DNA of 61,990 nt from a virus: the UHGV virus genome UHGV-0106586; one strand, 5' to 3'. Shown here piece by piece: positions 14,772 to 60,399 of the stretch; positions within the stretch are counted from its first letter, which is position 1; every line of letters begins with the position of its first letter. A program made the position numbers and the translations under genes. Below the pieces are notes generated by a model. It saw only the letters and a list, made by a program, of their open reading frames with translations, was not told the DNA's origin and made no database searches.

Positions 14772-14924
14772 TTTAACTTATCTCTCAACTCACAATAAGA
14801 GAGTCCTAAAAAGAACCCCAGTAAGACAGAACCTATGAACAGGCCAATGATGCTCTCTGCCATATCTAACATCCAATAAAAAGGTGATGTAAGCCTATCA
14901 AGACTCACACCACCTTGTCAAGTT

Positions 14925-15872
14925 TTACATAGAAATCCTGTCACGAATCTCAGCAATTTTTGCATCATTCATTCGGGATTCACCTTTAATCTTAGTCCAC
15001 CCAAGATACCCACACACTCTGTTAATCACAGAGATGTCATGTGAATGGCAAACCTCACATTCTTCAACATCAGCCTTTGGTCTGTTGCCACAATGTTCGC
15101 AGATTGCTAAGTCAAAGTTAAGTCCCTGATAGAAACCTTTCAACATCCCTCTTGTAATACAACTTTTAAGTGCTGTTAAGTTTTCTGGGTTAGCTACCCT
15201 TACATACTGGATTCTGCCGCCTCTACAGATATGGAAGAATGGTTCTTCTAAGTCCTGCTTCTCAAATGGTGAAATATCTGCTGCAACATTCATATGGAAA
15301 CTGTTTGTAAAGTATTCCTTATCAGAAACACCTTTGATAACGCCAAACATATCTCTGAACTGTTTTAGTTGAGTCCCACAAAGTGATTCTGCTGGAGTAC
15401 CATAGACGGCATATAAGAAGCCATCTTCATTCTTAAACTCTTCAGTTTTCATGTTAATGTATGCCAGAACATCGTATGCAAAACTATAGCTTCCAACTTC
15501 ATGAAGTCGTTTACCCTCAGCAAGAACAGACAACTCATCAAGAGCAGTAACCCCAAAAGAAGCTGTGAAGGACTTCACGATATCCCAACCAACCTTGTCA
15601 GTAGGTTTCTTAGTCCCTTTGTACAGACCACCTTGTGTGAATGCAAGAGGGTTAGAACTTGCTGGCATATTAGCAATCATTTCGTAGCGTTTCTTGTGGA
15701 AGCTGCGAATCATCTCTAGGTACTTATCAAGCTCTTTCCAGAAATCTAAACCATTCTCTTTAGAATACTGGTAAATCATTGGCAAGTTCAAAGATACAGC
15801 ACCAATGTTAGCACGACCTACATAAAACTCTTCACCATCTTCGTTATGATATGGTGATAAAAACGCTCTACA
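14925..15872 (-). CDS. nrdD: anaerobic ribonucleoside-triphosphate reductase, C-terminal exon (inferred exon 2)
   Basis: RVCGYLG glycyl-radical motif and CEHCG...C zinc-ribbon near C-terminus; open frame extends upstream of any start codon to 15893. Confidence 0.7.
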   Translation of the reverse strand, partial: CRAFLSPYHNEDGEEFYVGRANIGAVSLNLPMIYQYSKENGLDFWKELDKYLEMIRSFHKKRYEMIANMPASSNPLAFTQGGLYKGTKKPTDKVGWDIVKSFTASFGVTALDELSVLAEGKRLHEVGSYSFAYDVLAYINMKTEEFKNEDGFLYAVYGTPAESLCGTQLKQFRDMFGVIKGVSDKEYFTNSFHMNVAADISPFEKQDLEEPFFHICRGGRIQYVRVANPENLTALKSCITRGMLKGFYQGLNFDLAICEHCGNRPKADVEECEVCHSHDISVINRVCGYLGWTKIKGESRMNDAKIAEIRDRISM

Positions 15873-16614
15873 CTTATTGTTCAGGTAAGTTCGCTACGCT
15901 TACCCCGCTTTATTCAAGCTGCTTACTGTCACCAGTAAGTCCAGACTATATCTTCTACTTATTTCTAAGTAGCGTACCATTTCGAGTCGCTTGACCCTAC
16001 ACCGCTACATTCATCACGGTTAGTCGTTCGGCATTTAAATGTACTCAAAATCATGTTCAAAGTTATTATACTCTTTTACACCCTTCAATATTGAAGAGAT
16101 AGTCTTGCGATTATACCCAAGTACATTAGATAACTCTCGTATTGACTTAGCAACAATAACTTCTTTTGTCACTTTATGTGTAGCCTTCACAGCATATGAA
16201 CGCTTACAAAACTTGTAGCAACCATTTTCATAACCCTCTTTAACATTCTCAGAATGAGTTCCCCATTCTAAGTTAGAAGCATGGTTGTTCAGTTTGTTAT
16301 CATCTTTGTGTTTTACAATTGGAAGATTGTTAGGGTTAGGTACATACTTTTCAGCAACTAACCTATGGACATACATGTCACGATTCTTCCTTCCATAAAA
16401 CCTTACTTTCATATAACCAGTGTTGGATTTCCACTGCGTAAGTTCTACACCATTTTTCCTAAAGACTCTTCCGTCCTCAGTAACATGATAATTTGGCATG
16501 TAATACTCCTATTTTATATAGTTTCTTACATCGTACATCATTTAGCACAGGATTGTCTACACCTGTAGAGTTTCCCTGTTTAGGCACGTTTTAGATGAGC
16601 TATAGAGCTTGTTA
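15873..16614 (-). mobile_element. probable group I intron interrupting nrdD (boundaries inferred), carrying an HNH homing endonuclease ORF
   Basis: nrdD frame broken by stop right after ...ISPMG and resumes at CRAFLSP...; inferred intron ends in G; possible P1 guide GCUCAU near its 5' end; 7-bp stem with GTGA tetraloop in 3' part. Confidence 0.5.
16035..16499 (-). CDS. HNH homing endonuclease (intron-encoded)
   Basis: VHRLVAEKY...VKHKDDNKLNNHASNLEWGTHSEN is a classic HNH motif. Confidence 0.75.
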   Translation of the reverse strand: MPNYHVTEDGRVFRKNGVELTQWKSNTGYMKVRFYGRKNRDMYVHRLVAEKYVPNPNNLPIVKHKDDNKLNNHASNLEWGTHSENVKEGYENGCYKFCKRSYAVKATHKVTKEVIVAKSIRELSNVLGYNRKTISSILKGVKEYNNFEHDFEYI

Positions 16615-29999: not shown

Positions 30000-30821
30000 T
30001 TATAAAGACTTAGTGCAGTTGGTCACTGGTAATCTGTGAGTGCTCTTTTCAGCCATAGCTGAGACTTGCTTCACAAAATCATCACCGAAGTTAATACGCA
30101 GCTTCTCTTCAATGATTGAAGCCCCAATGTTTACCAAAACATCATTGATTGCTTGCATACTGACACCACCAGTCATCTCCTCAACGAACTCAATGGTTAC
30201 CCCCAACATCTGAGAAAGTTGGATTAGTGCAAAGATATTCATCATTGTAGAGATAGCTGGAATCATCAGAGCAACCTTCACCTGTAGTGGCTCTACATCA
30301 GCTACAGAGTCATCTTTCACAGCTTCTGCTAAAGAGTCTTTAGTTTGCTGGATAATCTCTTTGATTCGTGGGTTTAATTCTTCTACGCCCCAATCAAGTT
30401 TTTCATATCGTGAAAGTTTCTCTTCCATACGCTTCTCAAGAACAGCCATAACAGCACTCGTTGATGAGATAAGCGTATCAATAATGAAATCAGTGTCCTT
30501 AGTCAGCAACAGTTCCTTATCTTCGTCTGACATTCTGATATAGTCATTCTTTTGTATTTCATAAAAAATGAACTCTGCAAGAGCATCAACACCTACAACA
30601 ATAGATGCTAAGGCAAGCTTTTTGTCACACAGCATCATGTTAACCTGTTCTGCAAAAGCACCGTTATCAGACTTGTCTTCAGGCAAGTTATAGCTTGCAG
30701 GCATAAACTGTTCTGTGTAGTTGTTACCACGAAGAATCATAGCCATGCTTTCTACGGCATTGATTAAGAATGCTTCATCAACACCTTTCTCTTCAAGCAT
30801 CTTTTCTACATCGATATTCAT
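30000..30821 (-). CDS. hypothetical protein (273 aa)
   Basis: ORF in track. Confidence 0.45.
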   Translation of the reverse strand: MNIDVEKMLEEKGVDEAFLINAVESMAMILRGNNYTEQFMPASYNLPEDKSDNGAFAEQVNMMLCDKKLALASIVVGVDALAEFIFYEIQKNDYIRMSDEDKELLLTKDTDFIIDTLISSTSAVMAVLEKRMEEKLSRYEKLDWGVEELNPRIKEIIQQTKDSLAEAVKDDSVADVEPLQVKVALMIPAISTMMNIFALIQLSQMLGVTIEFVEEMTGGVSMQAINDVLVNIGASIIEEKLRINFGDDFVKQVSAMAEKSTHRLPVTNCTKSL

Positions 30822-30822
30822 A

Positions 30823-31245
30823 TTATTTCTCTCTCAGTTGGTTAAGTTTCTTTCTAGAACATTTTAAGTTTTCAGATGAAGAAAAGTCAAGTGTCTTTTC
30901 AGAACGTGGATAGTAATGCCTATCCCAAGAAGTTTCAACATCGTTAATCAGTGACGCTAGATTACACAGGTCTGTACCACTTTGCAACCTCTTTTTAAGA
31001 GAATCAAGTAAAGCAACTGTGTCTTTAGCTTTACGTCTCGCTGTAGCAACATCTTTCATATGCTCAAATACAGAGCATTTTAAGTCATCTTCATAGTTTT
31101 CAGACAACTCTATTTCATGTTGTATATCAACCATTCTCCTGTGATGGTGAGCATATTCCCGTTGAGCAGCAATGTCAAGTTCTTCCAACTTCTGCAAAGC
31201 TCTAACAAAGTCAGCTATGTCTGGGTGAACAAACATTTTCTGCAT
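30823..31245 (-). CDS. hypothetical protein (140 aa)
   Basis: ORF in track. Confidence 0.45.
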   Translation of the reverse strand: MQKMFVHPDIADFVRALQKLEELDIAAQREYAHHHRRMVDIQHEIELSENYEDDLKCSVFEHMKDVATARRKAKDTVALLDSLKKRLQSGTDLCNLASLINDVETSWDRHYYPRSEKTLDFSSSENLKCSRKKLNQLREK

Positions 31246-31502
31246 GTAAGCCTCTTTTAAGTAACTATTAAGTTTTAATCTTTTATCTTAACGTATTCTA
31301 TACGTTATACTTTAAAGCTTTTTAAAAGCTATTAAATAATCTTTTAAGAGTTTTAAAGTATCTGTATAGTTAAACTGTTAAGTAACCTTTTAAGTAAAAA
31401 CCCACTTCGCAAAGATTAACACCTTGTCAAGTGCATTGTCAACTTGCTTTTTATAATTTTTTGCAGTAATGTATGAGGTTAATGATTTTAGAGGGAGTAA
31501 AA
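31246..31502. promoter_or_regulatory. AT-rich divergent control region between minus-strand and plus-strand gene blocks; palindromes (ctttaaag, gctttttaaaagc); candidate promoters and/or replication origin
   Basis: Strand switch at this point; TTGTCA and TATAAT hexamers present but spacing imperfect; palindromes seen directly. Confidence 0.4.
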
Positions 31503-34202
31503 ATGGAAAACGTAGATTTTAAAAACTTACATTTAGTTGGTGATACAGAAACTGATGGTTTACTCCTTGAGTTTACTAAAGTGCACGTAATGGCTTTCGC
31601 AGACTATAAATCTGACGATGAAGAGCCACCTGTATGGGTCTTTACAGATGAACCTATCCTCGGTCACAAGTATACCAAGTACATTAAGGGTGGTTTACGT
31701 GAAGGTGTTGAATTTGCGTTAAAGGCAAAACGTCTTTGCATCCATAACGGTCTCGGTTATGACTGGTGGGTTTTCAATCACATTGCACCCGATTTGTGGA
31801 ACTTTGATAATCCAAAGTGTAAGCCGTGGAGTAATTTCTTTCAGGATTCTCTTATCCAGTCTCGTGTTCAGTGGATGGATAGACCAACTCCAAAGGGCTA
31901 TAAAGGTGCTCATGGCTTGGCAGCATGGGGTGCTCGTGTGGGTGTCCGTAAACCAGAGATTGAACATTGGGGTGTGTGGAATGCAGAAATCTTCACTCGT
32001 GTTGTGGAAGATATCCGTATTAACGCCAAAACTAAACGTGCATTGGATAATGAATATCTGAAGCTTAAGAAGTGTGGTATAGACACTTATGAAACCTACA
32101 TGCGAGCTAAAGAGACATCTTTCTGGATGAGTCAACAGGCTATCAATGGTTGGAAAGCTGATAAAGAGCTTATGGAGTTCCATGTAAAGGAACTTGACAA
32201 GTTGACTAATGAGCTTGCTTCAGAAGTTGAACCACATCTTCCTCCAACTATTAAAACCAAAGGTAAAGTCACTGGAGAAGAATTTGCAAAAGCTTGGAAT
32301 GAGTATGTTGAAGCGTTTGGTCATGCAGATGGTCTGAAGAGAATTACCAAGTACCCTAAGACAAAGTATCGTCAACAGGTACGCAACGGTGAGATGCAGA
32401 CATATGAAATCAAGCCATTTGGTAAGCCAACTACAAAGATTTTTAACATTGAAAAGCGGAATTGCTATACACCAACCAACTCTGTAACTGGCGAAGAGTA
32501 CAAGGAAGGCTTTGTAGCAATGAAGGATGCTCGTGCAATTTGCAATGAGTTGAATGCAAAGATTGGTAAGAAGTGCAAAGACTGGAAGCCAGTAAAAACA
32601 GTTAAAACTGTGAAGTACTATAACAGCCATGTTGTTAACCACTTTAAGCTTGAGTCAAGTCGCTACACAGGTTTGATTGATGCACCATATACACCAATTG
32701 AGTTCGAAGTTTCTCGTATGACTCAGGTAGCAGTTGTTAAAGACTACTTGAAATCAGTTGGTTGGATTCCAGATGACTGGAACTATAAGAAAGACTCTGA
32801 TGGTCGTCCTGTTAAGGTTTGTCGCTTCAAAGACAACAAAAAGATGATTACAAAACATCCTAAGTGGGATGAGATGGTGGAACGGTGTGGTTTGAGTTAT
32901 GTTGAACATGAAGGTGTCCAGTACATTGAACATAACTGGTCTGTGAAGAAGTACACAGATTTGCTTGAGCCTTGCTTAATCCGTACTTCACCAAAACTTA
33001 CTGAATCATCTTATGATACGATTGAAGGTGAGCTTGGACAGAAGATTGCTAAGTACTATACTTTGATGCACCGACGCAGAACTATTGAGAACTCAAAGGA
33101 TGATGAAAAAGGTTGGTTGAACCAGATTCGTCCAGATGGTCGCCTTAGTGCTGGTGCAATGGTATTTGGTACTTCAACTGGACGTATGACACAATATGGT
33201 ATTGTAAACGTACCGTCTGGTGCTGCTGTCTATGGAGCACCTATGCGGGAAGTTTGGACTTGTGAAGAAGGTACAGATATCATCTCTGTAGACCAAAACT
33301 CAGCACAGCTAGTTCTTCTTTGTAACTTTATGGGTGATGAAGAGTTCACTAAAGCGGTAACTGAAGGTAAAGAGTCAGTAGAATTTACCAAGCAAGAGGA
33401 TGGGAGATACTATTGCAAGCATCTTGATAAGTACCTCAATCCAGAAACTGATAAGTATCTTCGTTATGATGCTGAGAATGACCTCTACGAAGTCTACACA
33501 GGTACTGATGCACATACACTGAATAGTATTTACTTTGGTCTGAACAAGGAAGAAGATATTGTTCGTTGTAGGGAAACACAGGATGAGGAACTTCTCCACG
33601 AGATTACAAAAGGTCGTAAGAAGGCCAAGAATGGCATCTACGCCCTGTTATTTGGAGCCGGAGACGAGAAGTTTGCAAAAACTATCAAGGCATCATCTAC
33701 GGAAGAAGGTGCATTGACTAAACAAACTTACTTTGTGCGTCTACCTAAGATTAAAAAGCTGCTTGACAGGTTAGAGGAAGACTTCAAAGCAACTAAGAAG
33801 GCACTTGAAGAGGTTTTTGGAAAAACTTCTGCAATTGCCAAAGGTGGTTATATCAAAGTCGCTGGAGCGTGGTTATGGTGTAAATCTCCACATAAGTTAT
33901 TGAATTTCACACTCATGGGTAGTGAGGCGCAGGTACAGAATGAGGGGATTAACTTGGCTAATAGAGAGTTAACAGAGCGAAAACTTACAGTTCTAAATGG
34001 TAGGAAACCAGCTATTGGTGCTAGATGGGTCTGTAGTTACCACGACGAAGTTTCTTTAGAGGTTCCAACAAAAGCTGTACCAGATGTTAAGGAGATTATT
34101 GATAGAATGTATGGTCAAGCATCAAAAAATCTTGGATTAAAGAGTAAGACGCTTGTTACAGGCACTGGTAAGGTAGGTAAGACATGGTACGCCGTACACT
34201 AA
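31503..34202 (+). CDS. DNA polymerase, family A (T7 gp5-like) with 3'-5' exonuclease domain
   Basis: N-terminal LVGDTETDG exo I motif; C-terminus ...YAVH as in Pol I family; ATG 31503 preferred (GAGGGAG RBS) over track start 31473. Confidence 0.85.
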   Translation: MENVDFKNLHLVGDTETDGLLLEFTKVHVMAFADYKSDDEEPPVWVFTDEPILGHKYTKYIKGGLREGVEFALKAKRLCIHNGLGYDWWVFNHIAPDLWNFDNPKCKPWSNFFQDSLIQSRVQWMDRPTPKGYKGAHGLAAWGARVGVRKPEIEHWGVWNAEIFTRVVEDIRINAKTKRALDNEYLKLKKCGIDTYETYMRAKETSFWMSQQAINGWKADKELMEFHVKELDKLTNELASEVEPHLPPTIKTKGKVTGEEFAKAWNEYVEAFGHADGLKRITKYPKTKYRQQVRNGEMQTYEIKPFGKPTTKIFNIEKRNCYTPTNSVTGEEYKEGFVAMKDARAICNELNAKIGKKCKDWKPVKTVKTVKYYNSHVVNHFKLESSRYTGLIDAPYTPIEFEVSRMTQVAVVKDYLKSVGWIPDDWNYKKDSDGRPVKVCRFKDNKKMITKHPKWDEMVERCGLSYVEHEGVQYIEHNWSVKKYTDLLEPCLIRTSPKLTESSYDTIEGELGQKIAKYYTLMHRRRTIENSKDDEKGWLNQIRPDGRLSAGAMVFGTSTGRMTQYGIVNVPSGAAVYGAPMREVWTCEEGTDIISVDQNSAQLVLLCNFMGDEEFTKAVTEGKESVEFTKQEDGRYYCKHLDKYLNPETDKYLRYDAENDLYEVYTGTDAHTLNSIYFGLNKEEDIVRCRETQDEELLHEITKGRKKAKNGIYALLFGAGDEKFAKTIKASSTEEGALTKQTYFVRLPKIKKLLDRLEEDFKATKKALEEVFGKTSAIAKGGYIKVAGAWLWCKSPHKLLNFTLMGSEAQVQNEGINLANRELTERKLTVLNGRKPAIGARWVCSYHDEVSLEVPTKAVPDVKEIIDRMYGQASKNLGLKSKTLVTGTGKVGKTWYAVH

Positions 34203-34687
34203 CACTTCAAGACTACAAGGATAATTTTATTTATGACCCCGACAAAGGGGTCTTCTACAACAAGTATGACAGGAATAGGCAAGCTAAAGCTGGGCAGATT
34301 GCAGGAGGAAGTGATGCTTATGGTTACAAAGTACTTAAATTCAAAGATGTCGTAATAAAAGTTCATCACCTCGTTTGGTGGTTCGAGCATGGTTACAAGC
34401 CCACTAAGATGATAGACCACATTGATGGTAACAGAAGTAATAATCATATCTCTAATCTTAGGGAGACTGATAAGTATGGAAACGCCCAAAACAGAGTTAA
34501 GCAGACAGCTAACAAGTCAGGTTACAAGGGTGTGCATTATTTTAAAGACTGCAATAAATGGAGGGCTGCTATAACATGCAGAGGTAAAAGGACATCACTT
34601 GGCTTATTTGACACACCAGAAGAAGCCCATAAAGCTTACTGTGAAGCTGCTATTAAACTCCACGGAGAGTTTGCAAAACTAAGTTGA
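34184..34687 (+). CDS. HNH endonuclease with AP2 domain (free-standing, overlapping the 3' end of the polymerase gene)
   Basis: KVHHLVWWFEHGYKP...IDHIDGNRSNNHISNLRE plus AP2-like SGYKGVHYFKDCNKWRAAI...GLFDTPEEAHKAY. Confidence 0.75.
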   Translation: MVRRTLTLQDYKDNFIYDPDKGVFYNKYDRNRQAKAGQIAGGSDAYGYKVLKFKDVVIKVHHLVWWFEHGYKPTKMIDHIDGNRSNNHISNLRETDKYGNAQNRVKQTANKSGYKGVHYFKDCNKWRAAITCRGKRTSLGLFDTPEEAHKAYCEAAIKLHGEFAKLS

Positions 34688-34738
34688 CAAGGTGCTCAGG
34701 GAAGAGTACCTTATACAATATCTTATATAGGAGGGCTT

Positions 34739-34948
34739 ATGAGCCACCGTGGAAGAACCCATGCAGCGATGATGAAAGGTGCTTCAAAGGAGACTATCAA
34801 AAATCGTAAGCAGAAGTTGTTTGAGAGAATGAACAGGTTAATTGACAATTCATCTCTTTCAGGTTCTGAGAAGGTTTTCTTGAAAGGTAATCTGAAAAGC
34901 GTTGCACAAGAACTTATTGACATTGAGTATTGGAGACATCAAAAATGA
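34739..34948 (+). CDS. hypothetical protein (69 aa)
   Basis: ATG with AGGAGGG RBS. Confidence 0.4.
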   Translation: MSHRGRTHAAMMKGASKETIKNRKQKLFERMNRLIDNSSLSGSEKVFLKGNLKSVAQELIDIEYWRHQK

Positions 34949-35157
34949 CACTTGCAGACGTTATTCAGCAACTTCACGACAATTGCTATACTCCAGAGTT
35001 GATTCAGGAGATGTCTATTGTGGTAATGCCTTGTAAGTTCGTAAAAGCTTTTAATGGCGAATCTTTAAGGTCTGCACATATCCTTATTGTTGACGGTAAG
35101 ATTGCAAGGGACCGTACAGGAGTCCTTAAGGGTGAACGTATTAGCATTGACATCTGA
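34945..35157 (+). CDS. hypothetical protein (70 aa from ATG 34945)
   Basis: ATG with GGAGA RBS; track start is a TTG. Confidence 0.4.
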   Translation: MTLADVIQQLHDNCYTPELIQEMSIVVMPCKFVKAFNGESLRSAHILIVDGKIARDRTGVLKGERISIDI

Positions 35158-35174
35158 GTATTGGAGATACCAAA

Positions 35175-35330
35175 ATGAAACGCAAAGTAAAATTCTTTAG
35201 TTTGTATGGAAGAGTCGGTAAAGGTTTTGATTGGCAACTTCTACGTTCAGATGTTAAAAGCAACGAGTTAGCACAGCTTATTATAAACTATCGACGAACG
35301 TACAGAGAAGTAGAACATCGTGAACAGTAA
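35175..35330 (+). CDS. small hypothetical protein (51 aa), below track cutoff
   Basis: Hand-translated MKRKVKFFSLYGRVGKGFDWQLLRSDVKSNELAQLIINYRRTYREVEHREQ; GGAGA RBS. Confidence 0.3.
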   Translation: MKRKVKFFSLYGRVGKGFDWQLLRSDVKSNELAQLIINYRRTYREVEHREQ

Positions 35331-35343
35331 TAGGAGAAGTATT

Positions 35344-35580
35344 ATGTGGAAAGCAGTAATTGTGCTTAGTGTTATCCTTCTATCTGGCTGTAATCCCTCT
35401 TACGAGGACAAAAATGCTTCTTATAGCCTCCCACCAGAGATGCAAGATTGCAAAGTCTATAAGTTACATGGTGATGCCATAAGCAGAGATATTGTTGTTG
35501 TCAGATGTCCAAACTCTCAAACAACAACATCTTATAGCTATGGAAAAAATGGTCAATCACACACTACTGTTATTGAGTGA
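35344..35580 (+). CDS. small lipoprotein (78 aa), early region
   Basis: Signal MWKAVIVLSVILLSGC with lipobox LSGC; ATG with AGGAGA RBS. Confidence 0.5.
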   Translation: MWKAVIVLSVILLSGCNPSYEDKNASYSLPPEMQDCKVYKLHGDAISRDIVVVRCPNSQTTTSYSYGKNGQSHTTVIE

Positions 35581-35590
35581 GGTGTTCAAG

Positions 35591-35797
35591 ATGGAAGTCC
35601 TAGTAAACTATATCTACTGTTATGATGTTGTTCACTCCACTACAACCGTAGCTCAACGTAACCCAATCGTCCCACGAGAAGGTGAGTTGGTTCGAATCGA
35701 GGGTTGGACTTACACTGTGGAAAGCATCATTCATAAGTTTGATGTTGCTGGTGATGTTCAAGTTATTGATGTAGAGATTGGTGGTAAGAGAAAATGA
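35591..35797 (+). CDS. hypothetical protein (68 aa from ATG 35591)
   Basis: ATG with GAGG RBS. Confidence 0.4.
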   Translation: MEVLVNYIYCYDVVHSTTTVAQRNPIVPREGELVRIEGWTYTVESIIHKFDVAGDVQVIDVEIGGKRK

Positions 35798-35979
35798 AAA
35801 CAGAACCTGTAAAAACTGAAGACGGAAACATTGAGACATTCTCAATCACAGTCGCTGGTGATGAGTTCTCTTGCAAATGTGGGTGTAACTGCTTTCATAA
35901 ACCAGATAAAACAAAACTTGGTCTTTATGAATGTAATAGCTGTGGGTTGAGGTTCTTAGACAAAAGCAAGGATATGTGA
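35794..35979 (+). CDS. small zinc-ribbon protein, paralog A
   Basis: FSCKCGCNCFHKPDK...YECNSCG; paralogous to ORF 36307..36498. Confidence 0.45.
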   Translation: MKTEPVKTEDGNIETFSITVAGDEFSCKCGCNCFHKPDKTKLGLYECNSCGLRFLDKSKDM

Positions 35980-36227
35980 TGAAGATAACTCAAGAAATGA
36001 AGAAGTTGTATGAGAGAAGTGTGAAGATTCCACCAAGAACTGATGCAAAGAAATTACTATTCAACTCTTGGATGAATGATTGCACGTATGAGCAATACTA
36101 CTTTAAAGTAATAGCATCAGGCGAAAGACCAGAATCACCTGAATTTTATGATATTTACATAAAGGAGCAAGATGAAAAATGTTTAGATTTCTACGAAAAA
36201 TACATGGAAGTTATAAATTCAATTTAA
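35976..36227 (+). CDS. hypothetical protein (83 aa)
   Basis: ORF in track. Confidence 0.4.
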   Translation: MMKITQEMKKLYERSVKIPPRTDAKKLLFNSWMNDCTYEQYYFKVIASGERPESPEFYDIYIKEQDEKCLDFYEKYMEVINSI

Positions 36228-36306
36228 TTATCAAAGAAGACTTTGGTGGACATGCTTGGCACTCCTTCTACTCAAAAGGCTCCATAGATTGTGAGGCAAG
36301 AGATAA

Positions 36307-36498
36307 ATGAACAAAGAAGATAAGCATAAAAATGCTGTACGTACTCCTGATGGAAAGGTTCAATCCTTCATCCTGACAGTTGGTGGAAAGACGTTTCGTT
36401 GCCACTGCGGAGCAAACTGTTTTCATAAACCAGATAAAAATGACCTAGAGCTTTACGCATGTAATGCTTGCAATACTTGGTATCACTCAGAGGAATAA
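36307..36498 (+). CDS. small zinc-ribbon protein, paralog B
   Basis: FRCHCGANCFHKPDK...YACNACN; paralogous to ORF 35794..35979. Confidence 0.45.
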   Translation: MNKEDKHKNAVRTPDGKVQSFILTVGGKTFRCHCGANCFHKPDKNDLELYACNACNTWYHSEE

Positions 36499-36499
36499 A

Positions 36500-37600
36500 A
36501 TGACAATTCTATACAAACAAAATAAAGATGGCTCTTTTAACGTCTGGTCATGCGTTGCTGTAGGCGACAAAGTTATTACAACCTACGGTAAAGAAAATGG
36601 CAAGATGATGTTTGAAGAGTATACAGCAGAACCTAAAAACATCGGTAAAAAGAATGAGCGTAACGCTGAACAGCAAGCTCTCTTTGAAGTTGCTGCTAAG
36701 TATAAAAAGCAAGTTGACCGTAAAGGTTATGCTTACACAAAAGAGTCTGCACAGAATACTGAGAAGGTAGGTGTACAACTTGCTCATGATGCTGCAAAGG
36801 TTAGTCATGCAAAGTATTTGATATTCCCTGCTGATGCTCAACCAAAACTTGATGGTGTTCGTTGTAGAATTTCAAGAGATGCTGATTCAGTTAGCTTCAC
36901 GGCCTATTCTCGTGAGAATACTGTTTACAACGTCCCAGCAGAACTAATCCCAGATTTACTTTTGTTGCTTAAATTGCATCCACAAGTCGAAGACTTTGAT
37001 GGTGAGATTTATGCTCACGGTTGGGACTTAGAAGATATTGTGTCTATGATTAAGAATGCTGACAATCCAGAACGCCACCTTCTTAAATTCTACTGGTATG
37101 ATATCTGTGACAATTCAAAAACTTGGCCTGAGCGTCGTGAAGTTATTGATAACTCACCCATTATTGAGCTTGGTGATACCTGTAGAGTTGTTCCTGTACA
37201 GACTATCCGTGTTAACTCTTGGGAAGAGTTTGATGAAGCTCATGATAAGTGGGTTGAAGCTAAGTTTGAAGGTGCAATGTACCGTTCAATCTCTGAAGAC
37301 TCCTTCTATGAGTGTTGTCACCGTTCATACTTCTTGATTAAGCACAAGAAGATGCACACTGAAGAGTTTAAAGTGACTGGTGTAAAGACTGATAAGCGTG
37401 GTCATGGCAAGTTCGTTGTAGAGACTCTTCCTAACGTCTTTGTAGATGTCTCATGGAAGACTACTCATGAGAAGAAACAGTATCTTGCTGAGCATCCTGA
37501 AGAGTTTATCGGGAAACCTTTAACGGTTCAGTTCCAGAAGATGACTCGTAAGGGGTCTTTACAGTTTCCTGTTGGTTTAGTTATTCGAGATTACGAATAA
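36500..37600 (+). CDS. ATP-dependent DNA ligase
   Basis: KLDGVRC adenylation motif I (KxDG); size ~366 aa; ATG 36500 with AGGA RBS. Confidence 0.75.
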   Translation: MTILYKQNKDGSFNVWSCVAVGDKVITTYGKENGKMMFEEYTAEPKNIGKKNERNAEQQALFEVAAKYKKQVDRKGYAYTKESAQNTEKVGVQLAHDAAKVSHAKYLIFPADAQPKLDGVRCRISRDADSVSFTAYSRENTVYNVPAELIPDLLLLLKLHPQVEDFDGEIYAHGWDLEDIVSMIKNADNPERHLLKFYWYDICDNSKTWPERREVIDNSPIIELGDTCRVVPVQTIRVNSWEEFDEAHDKWVEAKFEGAMYRSISEDSFYECCHRSYFLIKHKKMHTEEFKVTGVKTDKRGHGKFVVETLPNVFVDVSWKTTHEKKQYLAEHPEEFIGKPLTVQFQKMTRKGSLQFPVGLVIRDYE

Positions 37601-37606
37601 AAGTTG

Positions 37607-37634
37607 TTGACATAGATAATTTGGTGAGTATACT
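37607..37634 (+). promoter_or_regulatory. sigma70-like promoter (-35 TTGACA 37607-37612, 16-bp spacer, -10 TATACT 37629-37634) overlapped by an 8-bp inverted repeat (37623-37630 / 37655-37662)
   Basis: Hexamers and dyad read directly. Confidence 0.5.
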
Positions 37635-37804
37635 GAGCATCATAAACCGACGGGTACTCACCAGCATCACTTAAGAGTCTTCTAAGAGGGTTTTTAAGTA
37701 ATGTTCGGTCGGGTTTGGTAGGGTAAGGTCGGGTAAGGTAAGGTAATGTATGGAAGGATGGCAGTAACCTTATAAAAAATCTGCCAAATAAGCTATAAAG
37801 TCTG

Positions 37805-37839
37805 TTGACAAGTCAGGTGTTATAGCTTATTTTTATACT
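37805..37839 (+). promoter_or_regulatory. second promoter-like element (TTGACA 37805-37810; -10 either TATTTT or TATACT) embedded in the inverted repeat agctataa / ttatagct
   Basis: Seen directly; -10 assignment ambiguous. Confidence 0.3.
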
Positions 37840-37877
37840 CAACGTAATACAAAATTTAATATAACTTTGAGGTCATT

Positions 37878-38261
37878 ATGAAAAAGATTTTATTAGCTGC
37901 TGCAATGGTTATGGCAATGAATTTACCAGTCAATGCAACAGAACTCCCCAATGTGGACTTATCAGGTGTTCCAGAAGACACTTGTCAGATTGTTAAAGGT
38001 GTTGCTTTGGCTAATGGTGAGTTACTTAAACCAATCTCTGAAGAGTCTTTAACAGAGATGACTGATAAGGTGACTGACTATCAGTATCGTGTTCTTGCAG
38101 AGTATTTCCTGCAATCTGCAAACATTAAAGAGAAGCACCATGAAGATATTGATGTACAGGCTATGCTCAATCATCGTATTCAGTTTAAAGAAGACTTGAT
38201 GCAAAAAGCTATGTATGGTGTTGAGTATTTCTTAGAAAACAGAAGCTGCACAGGTATTTGA
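37878..38261 (+). CDS. secreted/periplasmic hypothetical protein with signal peptide
   Basis: N-terminal MKKILLAAAMVMAMNLPVNA signal-like sequence. Confidence 0.5.
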   Translation: MKKILLAAAMVMAMNLPVNATELPNVDLSGVPEDTCQIVKGVALANGELLKPISEESLTEMTDKVTDYQYRVLAEYFLQSANIKEKHHEDIDVQAMLNHRIQFKEDLMQKAMYGVEYFLENRSCTGI

Positions 38262-38262
38262 T

Positions 38263-38475
38263 ATGGCTCTTAAAAAGTTACATCCCAGAAGCGGTTATGG
38301 TAAGATAATTGACGATACAGACGGCTTTACAGTCTTTACAGTTATCTGTCAAGATGATTCACAGATTGAAAAGGCTCTTGATGATTATCTTAACGATGAA
38401 CGTGAAAAGGTTAGGGCTACAAACATAGATTCATTGATTGACACTTCACGCAAACGGAAGAAGAAAGATGAATGA
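38263..38475 (+). CDS. hypothetical protein (70 aa)
   Basis: ORF in track. Confidence 0.35.
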   Translation: MALKKLHPRSGYGKIIDDTDGFTVFTVICQDDSQIEKALDDYLNDEREKVRATNIDSLIDTSRKRKKKDE

Positions 38476-38767
38476 GATTTTTGACCCTTATGCTCCACAA
38501 GATGATTGGGAGGCTGACAGAGAGGCTGAAATGGAGAGTTATATTTGTCCAATGGATGTAGACGAAATGAGAGACTTCGTTGCACATCGTTTTAAGAGAG
38601 AGATTAAATCCAGAGGTCTTTCTCAAGAGCAAGTTGCTAAAATTTGTGGTATCTCTCAGGCTCGTGTATCCAACATAATCAATCTCACTGGTAATGTCTC
38701 CCTTGAGTTTATGTTGGAAGTATGTGAAAAATTTGGTGTTAACTTTAATTTAAGGCTGGCAGATTAA
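38468..38767 (+). CDS. helix-turn-helix DNA-binding protein (XRE-like), probable transcriptional regulator
   Basis: LSQEQVAKICGISQARVSNI resembles an HTH; ATG 38468. Confidence 0.5.
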   Translation: MNEIFDPYAPQDDWEADREAEMESYICPMDVDEMRDFVAHRFKREIKSRGLSQEQVAKICGISQARVSNIINLTGNVSLEFMLEVCEKFGVNFNLRLAD

Positions 38768-38768
38768 T

Positions 38769-39128
38769 ATGAAACGTGAAAACATTATCCACTCTGAAAA
38801 CTTCGCATTAGGCTTTTATGGTGTGCCTACTCACCTTGAAAAGTATTATGGTGTAAAGATTCTCTCCAATCTCATTATGGCTTACAAAGATGGTAAGATT
38901 AAACATACTGAGAAGAAACGTGTCATGGGTTATATGGCTGTAGGTTCAGCAATCTCAAACATTAAGCTGGAAACAACTAGTAGCCAGATTGTGAAAGACC
39001 ACTTCATCAAAGAGCTTTACCACAATCTTGATGGTGTAGATGTTCAGGCTGTTTGGCTGGATGTTGATGGTCACAACTACACAAGTTTCGTTTTCAAAAA
39101 TGATGACATCAAGTGTCTGTTCCCATAA
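38769..39128 (+). CDS. hypothetical protein (119 aa)
   Basis: ORF in track. Confidence 0.45.
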   Translation: MKRENIIHSENFALGFYGVPTHLEKYYGVKILSNLIMAYKDGKIKHTEKKRVMGYMAVGSAISNIKLETTSSQIVKDHFIKELYHNLDGVDVQAVWLDVDGHNYTSFVFKNDDIKCLFP

Positions 39129-39141
39129 TAGGTGATTAACT

Positions 39142-39657
39142 ATGATTGATATCTACTTACAAGATGCTCATGCAGATTTCCTTAAGGAAATGCTTAAAAA
39201 GTTTATGGCTTCACAGTATGAGAATGAAGCATCTTTTAAAATAGTCACATGTGGCGACGAAGCTGGTTTTGTTGAGATTGAGCATGAAGGTACTGGAAAG
39301 ACTGTTTGTAAGTTACCTGATAGCATGTTCTCTAGCACATTCTTAGCAAAGACTATCATAAATGTTAAGCTTGTACCTCAGATTGAAACATACTCTGGTA
39401 CAGATTACCCTAAAGGTTTTAAGTCACTGATGAAGTACTTCTTAGATGACTTTGTGAGCAATCTTCTGCGAGAGGTAAAAGAAAGTCGTACAGTGTTGAC
39501 TGTAGAGAATATGGGAGGCACTATTAGGGTTACTTCTGACTGCTTTGTTATGAACCTCTTCGACTTCGTTCCTAAGAACTTTGATGGTATTCTGGATGAA
39601 GAGGATGACTGTGTAGACTTTATATTGGTTCTTGAACCAGTTTTTGAGGTTAAATAA
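39142..39657 (+). CDS. hypothetical protein (171 aa)
   Basis: ORF in track. Confidence 0.45.
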   Translation: MIDIYLQDAHADFLKEMLKKFMASQYENEASFKIVTCGDEAGFVEIEHEGTGKTVCKLPDSMFSSTFLAKTIINVKLVPQIETYSGTDYPKGFKSLMKYFLDDFVSNLLREVKESRTVLTVENMGGTIRVTSDCFVMNLFDFVPKNFDGILDEEDDCVDFILVLEPVFEVK

Positions 39658-39921
39658 ATGAAAATTGAACACTGCTATGAGTCTGATGGAACACCTATCC
39701 GATGTCCACATTGTGGGTGTACAGACTTACAAGGCGAGGTAAGTGAAATAGTCAACGGTCATATTGCTGAAGAGAGTACAAGGTGTACAGGATGTAATGA
39801 AATCATTGCTTTCTGGGCTTATGGTTTATACCAGCCTACACCACACTTAATCTACCATAGCAATAAAGCTGTGAAGAATGTTATTAACTGGTTCATTAAG
39901 AAAGGATTTACAAATGATTAA
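39658..39921 (+). CDS. small zinc-ribbon-like protein (CPHCGC...CTGCN)
   Basis: Two CxxC pairs. Confidence 0.4.
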   Translation: MKIEHCYESDGTPIRCPHCGCTDLQGEVSEIVNGHIAEESTRCTGCNEIIAFWAYGLYQPTPHLIYHSNKAVKNVINWFIKKGFTND

Positions 39922-40459
39922 ATTAATCTTTGCAAGTGGTGAAAATGGGGAGTTTGGTACTCCAACTGGTATGCCGTGGCCTCGACATAAACAGGACATG
40001 CAAGAGTTTAAGAGACTCACTAAAAATAACTTAGTAGTGATGGGTAATGAAACTTTCAAGACTCTGGGAAGTAAACCTTTACCAGAACGTGCAAACCTCA
40101 TCTTAACAAACTCTGTACCATATTTAGGCATAGATTTTGGCAAAGATGATGTAATGTATGCTAAGGCCAGCAAAGAATCCTTTGGAGCATTTTTGAACTA
40201 TCTTGATAGCTCTATTGATGAAGATGTATTTGTAATTGGTGGTGCAGGTGTCCTTGTCAATGCTTTACCGTATGCTGGTGTAGTTTTCCATACAGTTTTC
40301 CATAAAGTTACTGAAGAGGCCACTGTGCATTTACCTTTTGAAAACTTCTTTGAGAAGCTGTATGATAACCGTGTATTTACAAAGGTACAGTCAAAACCAT
40401 CAGAGGATGGTAAAGCAACCTTTGAAATTTATGTTCCACAAGTAAAAGGACACTTTTGA
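39914..40459 (+). CDS. folA: dihydrofolate reductase
   Basis: MIKLIFASGENGEFG...MPW...VVMGNETFKTLG...PLPERANLILT follows the DHFR N-terminal pattern; directly upstream of thymidylate synthase. Confidence 0.75.
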   Translation: MIKLIFASGENGEFGTPTGMPWPRHKQDMQEFKRLTKNNLVVMGNETFKTLGSKPLPERANLILTNSVPYLGIDFGKDDVMYAKASKESFGAFLNYLDSSIDEDVFVIGGAGVLVNALPYAGVVFHTVFHKVTEEATVHLPFENFFEKLYDNRVFTKVQSKPSEDGKATFEIYVPQVKGHF

Positions 40460-40460
40460 T

Positions 40461-41360
40461 ATGTCACAAGCAGATACAAGTTACAAAAATATCCTGAACC
40501 ATGTTTTATCAGTCGGTGAACTGCGTACTACACGAACTGGAGATGTTATCTCTGCATTTGCTCCACCACAATTTCGTTTTGATATGAGAACTGGTTTCCC
40601 ACTATTAACATCTAAACAGGTGTTTACACGGCAAGTTATTGGGGAAGCTTTATGGTTCCTGAACGGTGAGAATAAACTGGGTGAACTCCGTTACCGTACT
40701 TGGGGTGAAAATGACGGAGAACGTTGGACAATCTGGTCAGATGATTTCAAACGCTGGTTAAGCTCTAATTATTCTTCTGAACAAGATTGGTTAGAAGATG
40801 CAGGTGGGAGAATCTACGGAGTTCAGTGGAGAAACTTTGAAGGTCATAATGGTTGTGTTGTAGACCAGTTAGATACCTTAGTAACGAAGATGAAGGGTGA
40901 TATCACAGACCGTTACATGCTTGTTAATGCTTGGAATGCAGCAGATATTGCAGCTAACTCAATGGCTTTAGCACCTTGTCATGTTCTGTTTCAGATTTAT
41001 ATCACTAACGAGGGTGAAGTTGACTTACAATGGTATCAGCGTTCTGTAGACACCTTTTTAGGACTTCCCTTTAACATTGCATCTTATGGCTTTATTCTGG
41101 AAGTTCTTTGTAAGATGACTGGATACACTCCACGGTACTTGATAGGTGTTTTTGGAGATACCCAGATTTATCAGAACCATATGAAGCAGGTTTATGAACT
41201 GATGAACAATGAAGAGTTCCATGCACCAACTTTTGAGATTGGTATCCCACTTAACACTTTAAGTGACTTAAAACATCTCACTGCAAGTGACTTTATTGGT
41301 GGTATTAACAATTACCAACATGCAGGAAAGATTGAAGCACCTTTGTCAGTAGGTAAATAA
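40461..41360 (+). CDS. thyA: thymidylate synthase (ThyA family; a dUMP-modifying hydroxymethylase variant cannot be excluded by eye)
   Basis: MALAPCH (catalytic Cys), QRSVDTFLGLPFNIASY, GDTQIYQNH and C-terminal ...APLSVGK align with E. coli ThyA as recalled. Confidence 0.8.
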   Translation: MSQADTSYKNILNHVLSVGELRTTRTGDVISAFAPPQFRFDMRTGFPLLTSKQVFTRQVIGEALWFLNGENKLGELRYRTWGENDGERWTIWSDDFKRWLSSNYSSEQDWLEDAGGRIYGVQWRNFEGHNGCVVDQLDTLVTKMKGDITDRYMLVNAWNAADIAANSMALAPCHVLFQIYITNEGEVDLQWYQRSVDTFLGLPFNIASYGFILEVLCKMTGYTPRYLIGVFGDTQIYQNHMKQVYELMNNEEFHAPTFEIGIPLNTLSDLKHLTASDFIGGINNYQHAGKIEAPLSVGK

Positions 41361-57368: not shown

Positions 57369-57419
57369 TCATGTTCCGACCCTCATAAGATGTTATTATT
57401 CTGTTAACTTATATATACA

Positions 57420-57448
57420 ATACTAGCATTTTCAAAGACTAATGTCAA
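57420..57448 (-). promoter_or_regulatory. sigma70-like promoter for minus-strand operon 57368..55554 (-35 TTGACA, 17-bp spacer, -10 TAGTAT)
   Basis: Read from reverse complement of 57420-57448. Confidence 0.35.
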
Positions 57449-57473
57449 GTATTTTTTAACATTTTATTAACAT

Positions 57474-57486
57474 CTGTGGTATAATG
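57474..57486 (+). promoter_or_regulatory. extended -10 promoter-like element (TGGTATAAT), plus strand
   Basis: TGnTATAAT seen at 57478-57486; no good -35. Confidence 0.35.
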
Positions 57487-57612
57487 GTTCTATGGGGAGA
57501 GTAAAATATAAAGGCGTGGCTATGAGGTTTATTCGATAGGGGTTGGTACAAGCCCAACTAACCGAATCAACTATGTATGTCACATGGTATTGCATTGCAC
57601 ACAGGAAATTTA

Positions 57613-57789
57613 ATGGTAAATCTCCCTCCTGAACTGGGGTCACCTGATGTATGGGCTGGTGGAGGTATCGGGCTGATTGCAGGTCTGTTACTCCGCTACG
57701 TCCTCGTCAGAGTGCTTGTTGTCTTTAAACTGTTCGGTCGTACATGGACGCTTGACCTTAAGGATAATGACCACACGGACCCCCGTTAA
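57613..57789 (+). CDS. small single-pass membrane protein candidate (58 aa), more GC-rich than surroundings
   Basis: AGGAAA RBS then ATG; GGGIGLIAGLLLRYVLVRVLVVF hydrophobic helix. Confidence 0.3.
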   Translation: MVNLPPELGSPDVWAGGGIGLIAGLLLRYVLVRVLVVFKLFGRTWTLDLKDNDHTDPR

Positions 57790-60237: not shown

Positions 60238-60316
60238 CATAGTTGATTCGGATGTTCTAGGAATCATCCTCATAGTTGATTCGGATGTTCTAGGAATCAT
60301 CCTCATAGTTGATTTA
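60238..60316. repeat. 33-bp tandem direct repeat (catagttgattcggatgttctaggaatcatcct), 2.4 copies, with internal dyad symmetry; ~85 bp upstream of the recombinase-like gene
   Basis: Copies at 60238-60270, 60271-60303 and a partial copy at 60304-60316; related sequence at 59429-59464. Confidence 0.7.
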
Positions 60317-60399
60317 GACCTTGATGATTTTTATTAGACACGTTTAAATACACTACCTAAAGCGATACAATCTAGGTATCAGTTTTGAGGTGGTAAACA

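What the first reader, a model, noticed from the sequence alone, without database searches (positions are those of the whole stretch)
31246..31502. AT-rich palindromic divergence region between the helicase-side and polymerase-side operons
Transcription switches strand here. The sequence has short perfect or near-perfect palindromes (ctttaaag, gctttttaaaagc) and repeated ttaa-containing motifs between a hypothetical gene and the DNA polymerase gene. It is a plausible site for divergent early promoters and/or a replication origin near the replisome genes.
Basis: seen in the sequence. Interest (0 to 1): 0.4.

Follow-up and report, generated by a model that had tools for sequence, protein, structure and literature searches.

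The report
Felix O1-type replication-gene control region
This is the conserved control region between the DNA polymerase operon and the helicase-side operon of a Felix O1-like phage: two back-to-back host-type promoters plus an AT-rich array of short repeated boxes. There is no real evidence yet that it is a replication origin.

Summary
Window 31246-31502 is exactly the gap between a leftward 140-aa gene and the DNA polymerase gene of a Felixounavirus. It has the lowest GC (26%) and the least stable duplex in the window. It carries the quoted palindromes and six same-strand copies of an 8-bp box, CTnTWAAG (no shuffle reaches this count).

Comparison of 11 lineages (polymerase identity down to 48%) supports two back-to-back sigma70-type promoters. 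They lie in the right third (31413-31472), not in the palindromic part:
- P_L: TTGACA-N18-TAATCT, minus strand.
- P_R: TTGCTT-N17-TAATGT, plus strand.

The AT-rich box array (31254-31395) lies downstream of the predicted P_L start in every lineage. It is as conserved as the polymerase coding sequence. I read it as a protein-binding operator array; the binder is unknown.

The origin idea is untested. The GC-skew flip here comes from codon positions 1 and 2, so it follows coding strand, not replication. No DnaA or IHF consensus sites or initiator gene were found.

Divergent promoters at this spot were already assumed in the 2010 Felix O1 genome paper. The box array appears to be undescribed. Interest is modest.

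The parts
31246..31502 (.). Whole intergenic control region between the 140-aa gene (minus) and the DNA polymerase gene (plus)
   Evidence: It is 100% identical to Felix O1 AF320576.1 63454-63774. It holds no ORF of 20 aa or more and no Rfam match.
31437..31442 (-). P_L -35 hexamer, TTGACA
   Evidence: PWM scan score 10.9; 34 of about 620,000 scored positions are as good or better. Invariant in 7 alignable lineages. It is the top leftward hit in all 11 lineages. It is annotated as a promoter in the AYO145A record.
31413..31418 (-). P_L -10 hexamer, TAATCT, preceded by TGn (extended -10), with an 18-bp spacer. Predicted start near 31405-31407, giving a 5' leader of about 160 nt.
   Evidence: (5/6 invariant; TAGTCT in Mooglevirus keeps T1, A2 and T6).
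31425..31430 (-). Second TTGACA, 12 bp from the first, lying in the P_L spacer. No usable -10 follows it. It is conserved more than a spacer needs to be.
   Evidence: A doublet is also present in Zyzzx.
31444..31449 (+). P_R -35 hexamer, TTGCTT, 1 bp from the P_L -35
   Evidence: Invariant in 7 lineages. Positional equivalents are found in Moogle, SE5, Tian, Zyzzx, L041 and Wc4-1.
31467..31472 (+). P_R -10 hexamer, TAATGT (pattern TAnnGT), with a 17-bp spacer. Predicted start near 31476-31480.
   Evidence: T1, A2, G5 and T6 are invariant, while only 5/17 spacer positions and 4/17 downstream positions are invariant. The PWM score alone is only 4.7.
31490..31505 (+). Polymerase ribosome-binding site AGAGGGAG and start codon ATG 31503
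   Evidence: Invariant across genera. The upstream in-frame ATG at 31473 is not conserved.
31254..31272 (+). Box pair 1: CTTTTAAG (31254-31261) and CTATTAAG (31265-31272), 11 bp apart. The first box overlaps the Shine-Dalgarno sequence of the 140-aa gene on the other strand (AAGAGG = complement of 31251-31256).
31289..31307 (.). Perfect inverted repeat TAACGTAT-TCT-ATACGTTA
   Evidence: Mooglevirus has ATGTAT/ATACAT, a change on both arms that keeps the symmetry.
31307..31361 (.). Central imperfect palindrome (27-nt arms). It contains box CTTTAAAG (31310-31317), GCTTTT-T-AAAAGC (31317-31329), box CTTTTAAG (31341-31348) and the relaxed box GTTTTAAAG (31350-31358).
   Evidence: The perfect 13-mer is broken in AYO145A and Suspvirus (T to C) and shifted in L034 and L036.
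31362..31373 (+). Block CTGTATAGTTAA, conserved in most alignable lineages (L036 departs at one position)
31375..31394 (+). Box pair 2: CTGTTAAG (31375-31382) and CTTTTAAG (31387-31394), 12 bp apart, at about +12 to +31 of the predicted P_L transcript
   Evidence: A box or box pair lies within about the first 40 nt of the predicted P_L transcript in the other lineages too (start offsets about +3 to +22).
31396..31409 (.). Nearly invariant block AAAACCCACTTCG, covering the P_L discriminator and start. It reads GTGGGTTTT at the 5' end of the predicted leftward RNA.
   Evidence: 13/17 positions invariant over 31396-31412.

Best explanation
The region is the transcriptional control region of the replication-gene module of a Felix O1-like phage (Ounavirinae).

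A compact core of about 60 bp (31413-31472) holds two back-to-back promoters read by host sigma70 RNA polymerase. Their -35 hexamers are 1 bp apart.
- P_L fires leftward into the operon that runs 140-aa gene ... dNMP kinase ... primase/helicase.
- P_R fires rightward into the operon that runs polymerase ... ligase.

The AT-rich remainder (31246-31405) is the DNA that encodes the roughly 160-nt leader of P_L, and it also lies upstream of P_R. It carries 6 strict and 3-4 relaxed same-orientation copies of an 8-bp box, CTnTWAAG, mostly in pairs about one helical turn apart.

I infer that these boxes are binding sites for a sequence-specific DNA-binding factor, phage-encoded or host, not identified. 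Bound just downstream of the P_L start and upstream of P_R, it would set the timing or level of replisome gene expression by roadblock or repression of P_L, and possibly by modulating P_R.

Shown: the anatomy, the statistics and the conservation pattern. Inferred: promoter activity, the start sites, protein binding and its regulatory sign.
For: Promoters:
- P_L scores 10.9 in a sigma70 PWM scan; 34 of about 620,000 scored positions are as good or better.
- P_L coincides with a promoter annotated in the AYO145A record.
- It is the best leftward hit in all 11 lineages examined, scores 10.9-13.4.
- In SE5 and Tian the hexamers TTGACA and TACATT are kept while the 17-bp spacer differs.
- P_R shows the classic promoter signature: -35 invariant at 6/6 positions, -10 at 4/6 (TAnnGT), spacer at only 5/17, with spacer length fixed at 17.
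- Its positional equivalents, about 30-45 nt before the downstream start codon (76 nt in Wc4-1), score 7.5-10.4 in SE5, Zyzzx, L041 and Wc4-1.
- The other divergent junction of the window (57420-57485) uses the same back-to-back layout with strong hexamers.
- RT-PCR in Felix O1 found the polymerase ORF transcribed within 5 min. The authors assumed divergent promoters between genes 96 and 97 (PMC3185647, section 2.5).

Box array:
- Six strict boxes lie in 160 nt, where 0.07-0.2 are expected.
- The boxes are enriched in every lineage, P <= 0.006 each, including five lineages that can no longer be aligned to each other.
- In seven of the eight regions tested, every non-palindromic copy is in the polymerase-sense orientation; Suspvirus has one antisense copy.
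- Neighbouring boxes are 9-14 bp apart.
- Box core positions are invariant at 32/36, against 6/12 at the two degenerate positions and 63/94 in the rest of the array.
- Across genera the non-coding region is 81-88% identical. That equals the polymerase coding sequence and far exceeds the left-hand genes, at 45-75%.
- In Kolesnikvirus a box pair brackets the -35 of a second leftward promoter.
- The array is unique in the window.
Against: - No transcript 5' ends have been mapped in any Felix O1-like phage that I could find.
- P_R alone is a poor match, PWM 4.7, with 1380 equally good sites in the window.
- No binder is identified. The adjacent 140-aa protein models as a helical hairpin with no DNA-binding fold and no significant PDB match. 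No homologue was found in the roughly 2 kb held upstream of the Zyzzx polymerase gene, although the array is kept there.
- Box length varies from 8 to 10 bp within and between phages, which is unusual for a rigid recognition site.
- The strand bias would also fit an RNA-level element.
- Nothing excludes an additional origin function.
Confidence: 0.6

Rival explanations
1. The region is, or also is, a replication origin of the transcription-primed type, as in the T7 primary origin and T4 oriF/oriG. Host RNA polymerase starting at P_L would transcribe into the easily melted AT-rich stretch. The RNA would stay hybridised as an R-loop and prime leftward leading-strand synthesis by the T7-like polymerase. 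The displaced strand would load the gp4-like primase-helicase.
For: - The predicted P_L points straight into the least stable 160 bp of the window.
- The site sits between the polymerase and primase/helicase genes.
- The phage has a T7-type replisome and no RNA polymerase of its own (PMC3185647).
- An invariant G-cluster (GTGGGTTTT) lies at the 5' end of the predicted transcript.
- Conservation is far higher than two promoters would need.
Against: - There is no direct evidence of any kind.
- The GC-skew minimum at 31.3 kb comes from codon positions 1+2 and vanishes or reverses at 4-fold sites, so it reflects coding strand only.
- An unwinding element needs AT-richness, not the position-specific box conservation seen here.
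- Relatives carry a second candidate region, an ORF-free repeat field that contains the terminal repeat.
Confidence: 0.2
2. The array works at the RNA level, as the roughly 160-nt AU-rich 5' untranslated leader of the leftward operon. It would control mRNA stability or translation of the 140-aa gene, either by structure or by a protein that binds the repeated CUUwAnAG motif.
For: - The array lies inside the predicted P_L transcript in all lineages.
- The boxes are strand-biased.
- The leftmost box overlaps the Shine-Dalgarno sequence of the 140-aa gene.
- The leader folds somewhat better than shuffles, z = -2.1.
- 2 of 26 predicted pairs show double changes.
Against: - There is no Rfam match.
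- The covariation term is about zero, -0.06 kcal/mol.
- The predicted long hairpin is not kept. Moogle and L041 fold locally, and SE5 and Tian have z of -0.3 and -0.7.
- The apparent pairs arise because the box is nearly self-complementary.
- The perfect 13-nt palindrome is broken in AYO145A and Suspvirus.
Confidence: 0.15
3. The AT-rich part is a target or decoy for host nucleoid-associated proteins that read DNA shape, such as H-NS, Fis, IHF, or response regulators that bind direct repeats 11 bp apart. It would not be a site for a dedicated phage factor.
For: - The region has extreme AT-richness and many TpA steps at T-tract/A-tract junctions.
- All known hosts are Enterobacterales, so a shared host factor is possible.
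- Variable box length fits shape readout.
Against: - There are no matches to the IHF consensus.
- The C and G boundary bases of the box are the best conserved positions, which points to base readout.
- Other AT-rich gaps of the window lack the boxes.
- From memory only, the Fis and Lrp consensus spacings do not fit. This was not tested with a tool.
Confidence: 0.1

Closest known systems
Back-to-back divergent sigma70 promoter regions with operator sites (a general bacterial and phage arrangement). For this very locus: the 'divergent promoters between genes 96 and 97' assumed for Felix O1 (Whichard et al. 2010, PMC3185647).
   Same: Two outward-facing promoters have adjacent -35 hexamers. Repeated short boxes lie next to or downstream of a start site. 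The junction controls early replication genes. The sequence is 100% identical to the Felix O1 locus.
   Different: The 2010 paper reported no sigma70-like sequence here. The promoters proposed now rest on comparison, not on mapping. No regulator gene is identified. The array is long (about 140 bp, 6-10 boxes) and lies in the transcribed leader.
T7 primary origin (promoters phi1.1A/B plus a 61-bp AT-rich region) and T4 oriF/oriG (a middle promoter plus a downstream DNA unwinding element). This comparison is from my own knowledge of the literature.
   Same: A promoter reads into an AT-rich, easily unwound stretch. The phage has a T7-like polymerase and a primase-helicase. The site lies in the replication gene cluster.
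   Different: Host RNA polymerase would have to do the priming. The AT-rich part is conserved base by base with repeated boxes, which those origins do not require. No replication data exist.
Iteron-type origins (lambda ori, P1 oriR/incA, plasmid oriV). This comparison is from my own knowledge.
   Same: Same-orientation repeats phased by about one helical turn lie in an AT-rich setting, and a second cluster of related repeats lies elsewhere in the genome of relatives.
   Different: The boxes are 8 bp, not 17-22 bp. There are no DnaA boxes and no adjacent initiator gene. The second cluster sits in the terminal-repeat field.

Membership tests
Divergent sigma70 promoter pair | -35 and -10 hexamers with a 16-18 bp spacer on each strand, upstream of the first gene of each operon | tested here: met
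   P_L is TTGACA-N18-(TGt)TAATCT, score 10.9. P_R is TTGCTT-N17-TAATGT, a weak match at score 4.7. Both sit correctly relative to the genes.
Divergent sigma70 promoter pair | Hexamers conserved while spacer sequence drifts and spacer length is kept; same layout in distant relatives | tested here: met
   One search gives hexamers at 6/6, 5/6, 6/6 and 4/6 invariant, against a P_R spacer at 5/17. One search finds the same layout in 11 lineages, with the two -35 hexamers 1-5 bp apart.
Divergent sigma70 promoter pair | Mapped transcription start sites | not testable with these tools
   No 5'-end data for Ounavirinae were found. RT-PCR shows only that the polymerase ORF is transcribed early.
Operator array of a transcription regulator | Repeated sequence-specific boxes overlapping or next to the promoter or start site | tested here: met
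   Six strict boxes are present, with P < 0.001 against shuffles. A box or box pair lies within about the first 40 nt of the predicted P_L transcript in all lineages, and boxes bracket a second -35 in Kolesnikvirus.
Operator array of a transcription regulator | An identifiable cognate DNA-binding regulator | tested here: not met
   The neighbouring proteins have no DNA-binding domain in Pfam, PHROGs or NCBIfam. The model of the 140-aa protein is a helical hairpin with no significant PDB match. Only the neighbours were examined, not the whole proteome.
Transcription-primed origin (T7 primary origin, T4 oriF/oriG) | A promoter directed into an AT-rich unwinding element | tested here: met
   The predicted P_L reads into the least stable 160 bp of the window.
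Transcription-primed origin (T7 primary origin, T4 oriF/oriG) | Replication actually initiates there (RNA-DNA transition, R-loop, marker frequency) | not testable with these tools
   No experimental data were found. GC skew cannot substitute.
Any replication origin | Strand-compositional switch that is independent of gene orientation | tested here: not met
   Coding-strand GC skew at 4-fold sites is +0.03, -0.17 and -0.03 in the three blocks. The skew resides in codon positions 1+2.
Iteron-type origin | Several 17-22 bp iterons, DnaA boxes, and an adjacent initiator gene | tested here: not met
   The repeats are 8-10 bp. No DnaA-box match within one mismatch lies in the region. No initiator-like neighbour was found.
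Structured cis-regulatory RNA or small RNA | A conserved secondary structure with covariation, or an Rfam family match | tested here: not met
   There is no Rfam match; the best E-value is 0.78, far below the gathering score. The covariation term is -0.06 and 2/26 pairs covary. The folds differ between lineages.

The most novel reading that the evidence does not exclude
The CTnTWAAG boxes are recognition sites of one unidentified factor that binds two places in Ounavirinae genomes. One is the replisome control region. The other is the ORF-free field that contains the direct terminal repeat, where related boxes recur at 11-bp phasing (seen in relatives, outside this window).

That would couple genome-end recognition or replication initiation to replisome gene expression. 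The P_L leader would then serve as a host-RNA-polymerase-primed origin for a T7-type replisome in a phage that lacks its own RNA polymerase.
Probability: 0.15. Interest if true: 0.6.

Novelty: new member of a known kind. Interest (0 to 1): 0.3.

Why it matters
Felix O1-like phages are widely used for Salmonella and E. coli typing, biocontrol and therapy. Yet their transcription programme and replication origin are unmapped.

The 2010 genome paper could not find promoters at this junction. The comparative analysis here gives concrete, testable promoter positions and start sites. It also shows that the rest of the gap is a strongly constrained array of short boxes conserved across the subfamily.

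If the boxes are operators, they mark an unknown regulator of replisome gene timing. If they mark an origin, this would be a host-polymerase-primed variant of the T7/T4 origin logic. Either result would help engineering of these phages. As it stands, the feature is an ordinary kind of element.

Tried and rejected
- **Small gene.** No ORF of 20 aa or more lies in the gap, and the boxes close all frames.
- **Known RNA family.** Nothing near any Rfam threshold. There are no tRNAs in the window.
- **Conserved RNA or ssDNA hairpin.** The window folds better than shuffles. However, the fold is not kept between lineages and covariation is negligible.
- **TATAAT at 31452-31457 as a -10.** Rejected, because it is not conserved in Suspvirus or Mooglevirus and is wrongly spaced from either TTGTCA.
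- **TTTAAA-N18-AATAAT (31311-31340), found by the consensus scan.** It is a weak match with no support of its own.
- **DnaA boxes and IHF consensus.** None in the region.
- **GC skew as origin evidence.** It is explained by coding strand.
- **The 140-aa neighbour as the box binder.** No family, no DNA-binding fold and no PDB match. No homologue was found in the DNA held beside the Zyzzx array.
- **Experimental data.** PhageMaP on Bas63 reports genes only and nothing for this gap. No transcript-start or origin mapping was found.
- **More distant polymerase relatives.** Alteromonas V22 and Aeromonas 4L372D have co-oriented helicase and polymerase genes and no such junction. Among the phages examined, the module was found only in Ounavirinae and one Ounavirinae-like metagenomic contig.

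Full report
**Identity of the window.** The window is a Felix O1-like myovirus (genus Felixounavirus). A 3-kb piece around the finding matches 259 phage records, the best at 96.9% identity. The 321 nt spanning the finding are 100% identical to Salmonella phage Felix O1, AF320576.1 63454-63774.

All long ORFs from 1 to 31245 are on the minus strand. From 31503 to 41360 they are on the plus strand, and from 41397 to about 57400 they are minus again. In annotated relatives the left neighbours are two hypothetical genes, dNMP kinase and primase/helicase. The right neighbours are DNA polymerase, small ORFs and DNA ligase.

**Check of the observation.** The coordinates are exactly the gap between the 140-aa ORF (30823..31245, minus) and the polymerase gene. 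The polymerase start is best placed at ATG 31503, behind the invariant RBS AGAGGGAG. The upstream in-frame ATG at 31473 is not conserved.

The gap has 26% GC against 38.7% for the window, the lowest of any 257-nt stretch. It is the least stable duplex at 50, 100 and 160 bp scales.

Both quoted palindromes are present. GCTTTT-T-AAAAGC is unique in the window. There is also a perfect 8+8 inverted repeat at 31289-31307 and a 27-nt imperfect palindrome centred on 31334.

The 'TTAA motifs' are copies of an 8-bp box, CTnTWAAG, at 31254, 31265, 31310, 31341, 31375 and 31387, all on the plus strand. No other 200-nt stretch has more than three. No shuffle reaches six: 0 of 2000 mononucleotide and 0 of 1000 dinucleotide shuffles.

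**Conservation.** Within the genus the gap is at least 99% identical in 193 of 259 records, while the 3-kb surroundings are 95-97% identical at best. Across genera (Suspvirus, Mooglevirus) the gap keeps 81-88% identity. That equals the polymerase coding sequence and far exceeds the left-hand genes at 45-75%. The gap holds no ORF of 20 aa or more and no Rfam match. Nearly the whole 257 nt is therefore constrained as non-coding DNA or RNA.

**Where the promoters are.** The Felix O1 genome paper assumed divergent promoters between genes 96 and 97 but found no sigma70-like sequence there. It also showed by RT-PCR that the polymerase ORF is transcribed within 5 min (PMC3185647, section 2.5).

A PWM scan finds one good leftward promoter, P_L, on the minus strand:
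- -35 TTGACA at 31442-31437
- an 18-bp spacer
- TGt then TAATCT at 31418-31413
- score 10.9, with 34 of about 620,000 scored positions as good or better

This is the promoter annotated in the AYO145A record.

The rightward candidate, P_R, is TTGCTT (31444-31449), N17, TAATGT (31467-31472). Alone it is weak, score 4.7, with 1380 equally good sites. Its support is comparative. In seven alignable lineages:
- the -35 is invariant at 6/6 positions
- the -10 keeps TAnnGT
- only 5 of 17 spacer positions and 4 of 17 downstream positions are invariant
- the spacer length stays 17

The TATAAT at 31452-31457 that catches the eye is not conserved and is mis-spaced.

In lineages too distant to align, the same layout recurs. 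These are Pectobacterium phage Wc4-1, Hafnia phage Zyzzx, the Kolesnikviruses SE5 and Tian, and a metagenomic contig, L041, with only 48% polymerase identity. In each, a strong leftward TTGAC(A/T) promoter (scores 11.7-13.4) has its -35 just 1-5 bp from the -35 of a rightward promoter (scores 5.6-10.4). The rightward promoter ends about 30-76 nt before the downstream start codon. In SE5 and Tian the leftward hexamers are identical while the spacer differs.

The window's other divergent junction (57420-57485) uses the same back-to-back design. I therefore place the divergent promoters at 31413-31472. The predicted starts are near 31405-31407 (minus) and 31476-31480 (plus). These are predictions; no 5'-end mapping exists.

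**The AT-rich part.** It is in the DNA that encodes a leader of about 160 nt for the leftward operon, which is also the upstream region of P_R. Its organising element is the box.
- The boxes are significantly enriched in every lineage, P <= 0.006 each.
- In seven of the eight regions tested, every non-palindromic copy is in the polymerase-sense orientation; Suspvirus has one antisense copy.
- Neighbouring boxes are 9-14 bp apart, and L041 has five in a row at 12-14 bp.
- TTTAAA is the only hexamer present at least twice in all five mutually unalignable lineages.
- In the alignable set, box core positions are invariant at 32/36. The two degenerate positions are invariant at 6/12 and the rest of the array at 63/94.
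- A box or box pair lies within about the first 40 nt of the predicted P_L transcript in each lineage; start offsets run from about +3 to +22.
- In Kolesnikvirus a second pair brackets the -35 of a second leftward promoter.

This is the pattern expected of sequence-specific binding sites placed to control a promoter.

A conserved hairpin is a poorer explanation.
- The window folds better than shuffles.
- The fold differs between lineages; SE5 and Tian have z of -0.3 and -0.7.
- The covariation term is negligible and 2 of 26 pairs covary.
- The 'perfect' 13-mer is broken in AYO145A and Suspvirus.
- The apparent long-range pairing arises because the box is nearly self-complementary.

**Who binds.** This is unknown. 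The flanking proteins have no informative family matches. The 140-aa protein is conserved and syntenic in most lineages. Its model (mean pLDDT 72.5) is a helical hairpin with no significant PDB match. No homologue was found in the roughly 2 kb of Zyzzx DNA held beside the array. Host factors cannot be excluded, but no IHF or DnaA consensus is present.

**Origin hypothesis.** The cumulative GC skew has its minimum here, but this is uninformative. The coding-strand skew lies in codon positions 1+2 (0.11-0.17). At 4-fold degenerate sites it is +0.03, -0.17 and -0.03 in the three transcription blocks. The flip therefore reflects the coding strand, not fork direction.

What remains in favour is architectural. 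A promoter reads into the most easily melted stretch, between the genes of a T7-like replisome, in a phage without its own RNA polymerase. That layout resembles the T7 primary origin and T4 oriF/oriG (from my own knowledge). I give it about 0.2. It could coexist with the regulatory role.

The iteron-origin model fails its defining features. The boxes are 8 bp, there are no DnaA boxes, and there is no initiator gene.

**Related observation outside the window.** In a complete relative (AYO145A), strict boxes cluster in only one other place, an ORF-free 1.56-kb field at 14,880-16,430. That field holds 26 TGTTA[AG] on one strand against 4 on the other, with a modal spacing of 11 bp.

The field contains the 581-bp direct terminal repeat of phage vB_EcoM_D4. 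A homologous TGTTAAG(A)-rich field exists in Erwinia phage SunLIRen. Whether one factor reads both loci is open. It is the basis of the most novel reading.

**Verdict.** The divergent-promoter interpretation is supported but relocated to 31413-31472. The origin interpretation is untested and its proposed skew test is void.

The element is a conserved control region of a familiar kind, at a locus already discussed in 2010. It has a previously undescribed box array, as far as my searches show. Interest is 0.3.

Noticed in passing
Locus L058 (AYO145A NC_028825.1) 14,880-16,430; L059/L060 (PP886228.1); L061 (SunLIRen) 306-1722. Not in the window.: An ORF-free field of about 1.5 kb lies between convergent terminators. 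It is packed with CTGTTAAG, CTTGTTAG and TTGTTAAG repeats on one strand (26 against 4) at 11-bp phasing. It contains the 581-bp direct terminal repeat of phage vB_EcoM_D4. A homologous field in an Erwinia Kolesnikvirus also carries a second repeat, CTTCTAA. It shares the box family with the finding region. It may be a packaging or terminus-recognition array, or an alternative origin candidate.
   Followed up: partly
window 57369-57576: This is a second divergent junction, with a strong back-to-back sigma70-like pair. The minus-strand promoter is TTGACA-17-TAGTAT (57448-57420, score 13.6). The plus-strand promoter is TTAACA-18-TATAAT (57456-57485, score 11.3). There is no box array here.
   Followed up: partly
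window 57600-60400: This is an ORF-poor stretch with gaps of 250-390 nt between small plus-strand ORFs. It has no tRNAs. By eye it contains what looks like an interrupted HNH-AP2 homing-endonuclease gene. Megablast found no match to the first 36 kb of AYO145A, so its place in the genome map is unclear.
   Followed up: no
window 31150-31178 (minus strand), inside the 140-aa ORF: A strong internal promoter-like site, TTGACA-17-TATGCT (score 12.4). Its -35 region (GCAATGTCAAGTT, 31169-31181) is an 85% direct repeat of the P_L -35 region (GCATTGTCAACTT, 31433-31445).
   Followed up: no
window 31503-34202 and 34184-34687: The polymerase gene is intact here. In many relatives it matches in two pieces, often with an HNH or other endonuclease gene annotated there. 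An HNH-AP2 endonuclease gene overlaps the polymerase stop codon in the window. In Kolesnikvirus another HNH gene sits between the promoter region and the polymerase gene.
   Followed up: partly
window 30000-30821 (minus strand): This 273-aa protein is labelled 'minor tail protein' in PHROGs and in many records. It sits inside the early replication operon and has no supporting domain hit, so the label looks doubtful.
   Followed up: no
window 58358-58410: A TTGACA is followed about 30 nt later by an inverted box pair (CTTAACAG ATT CTTAAGAG). The local order resembles P_L and its first box pair, including TTGTCAA...TGCTTTT on the opposite strand. No convincing -10 was found.
   Followed up: partly
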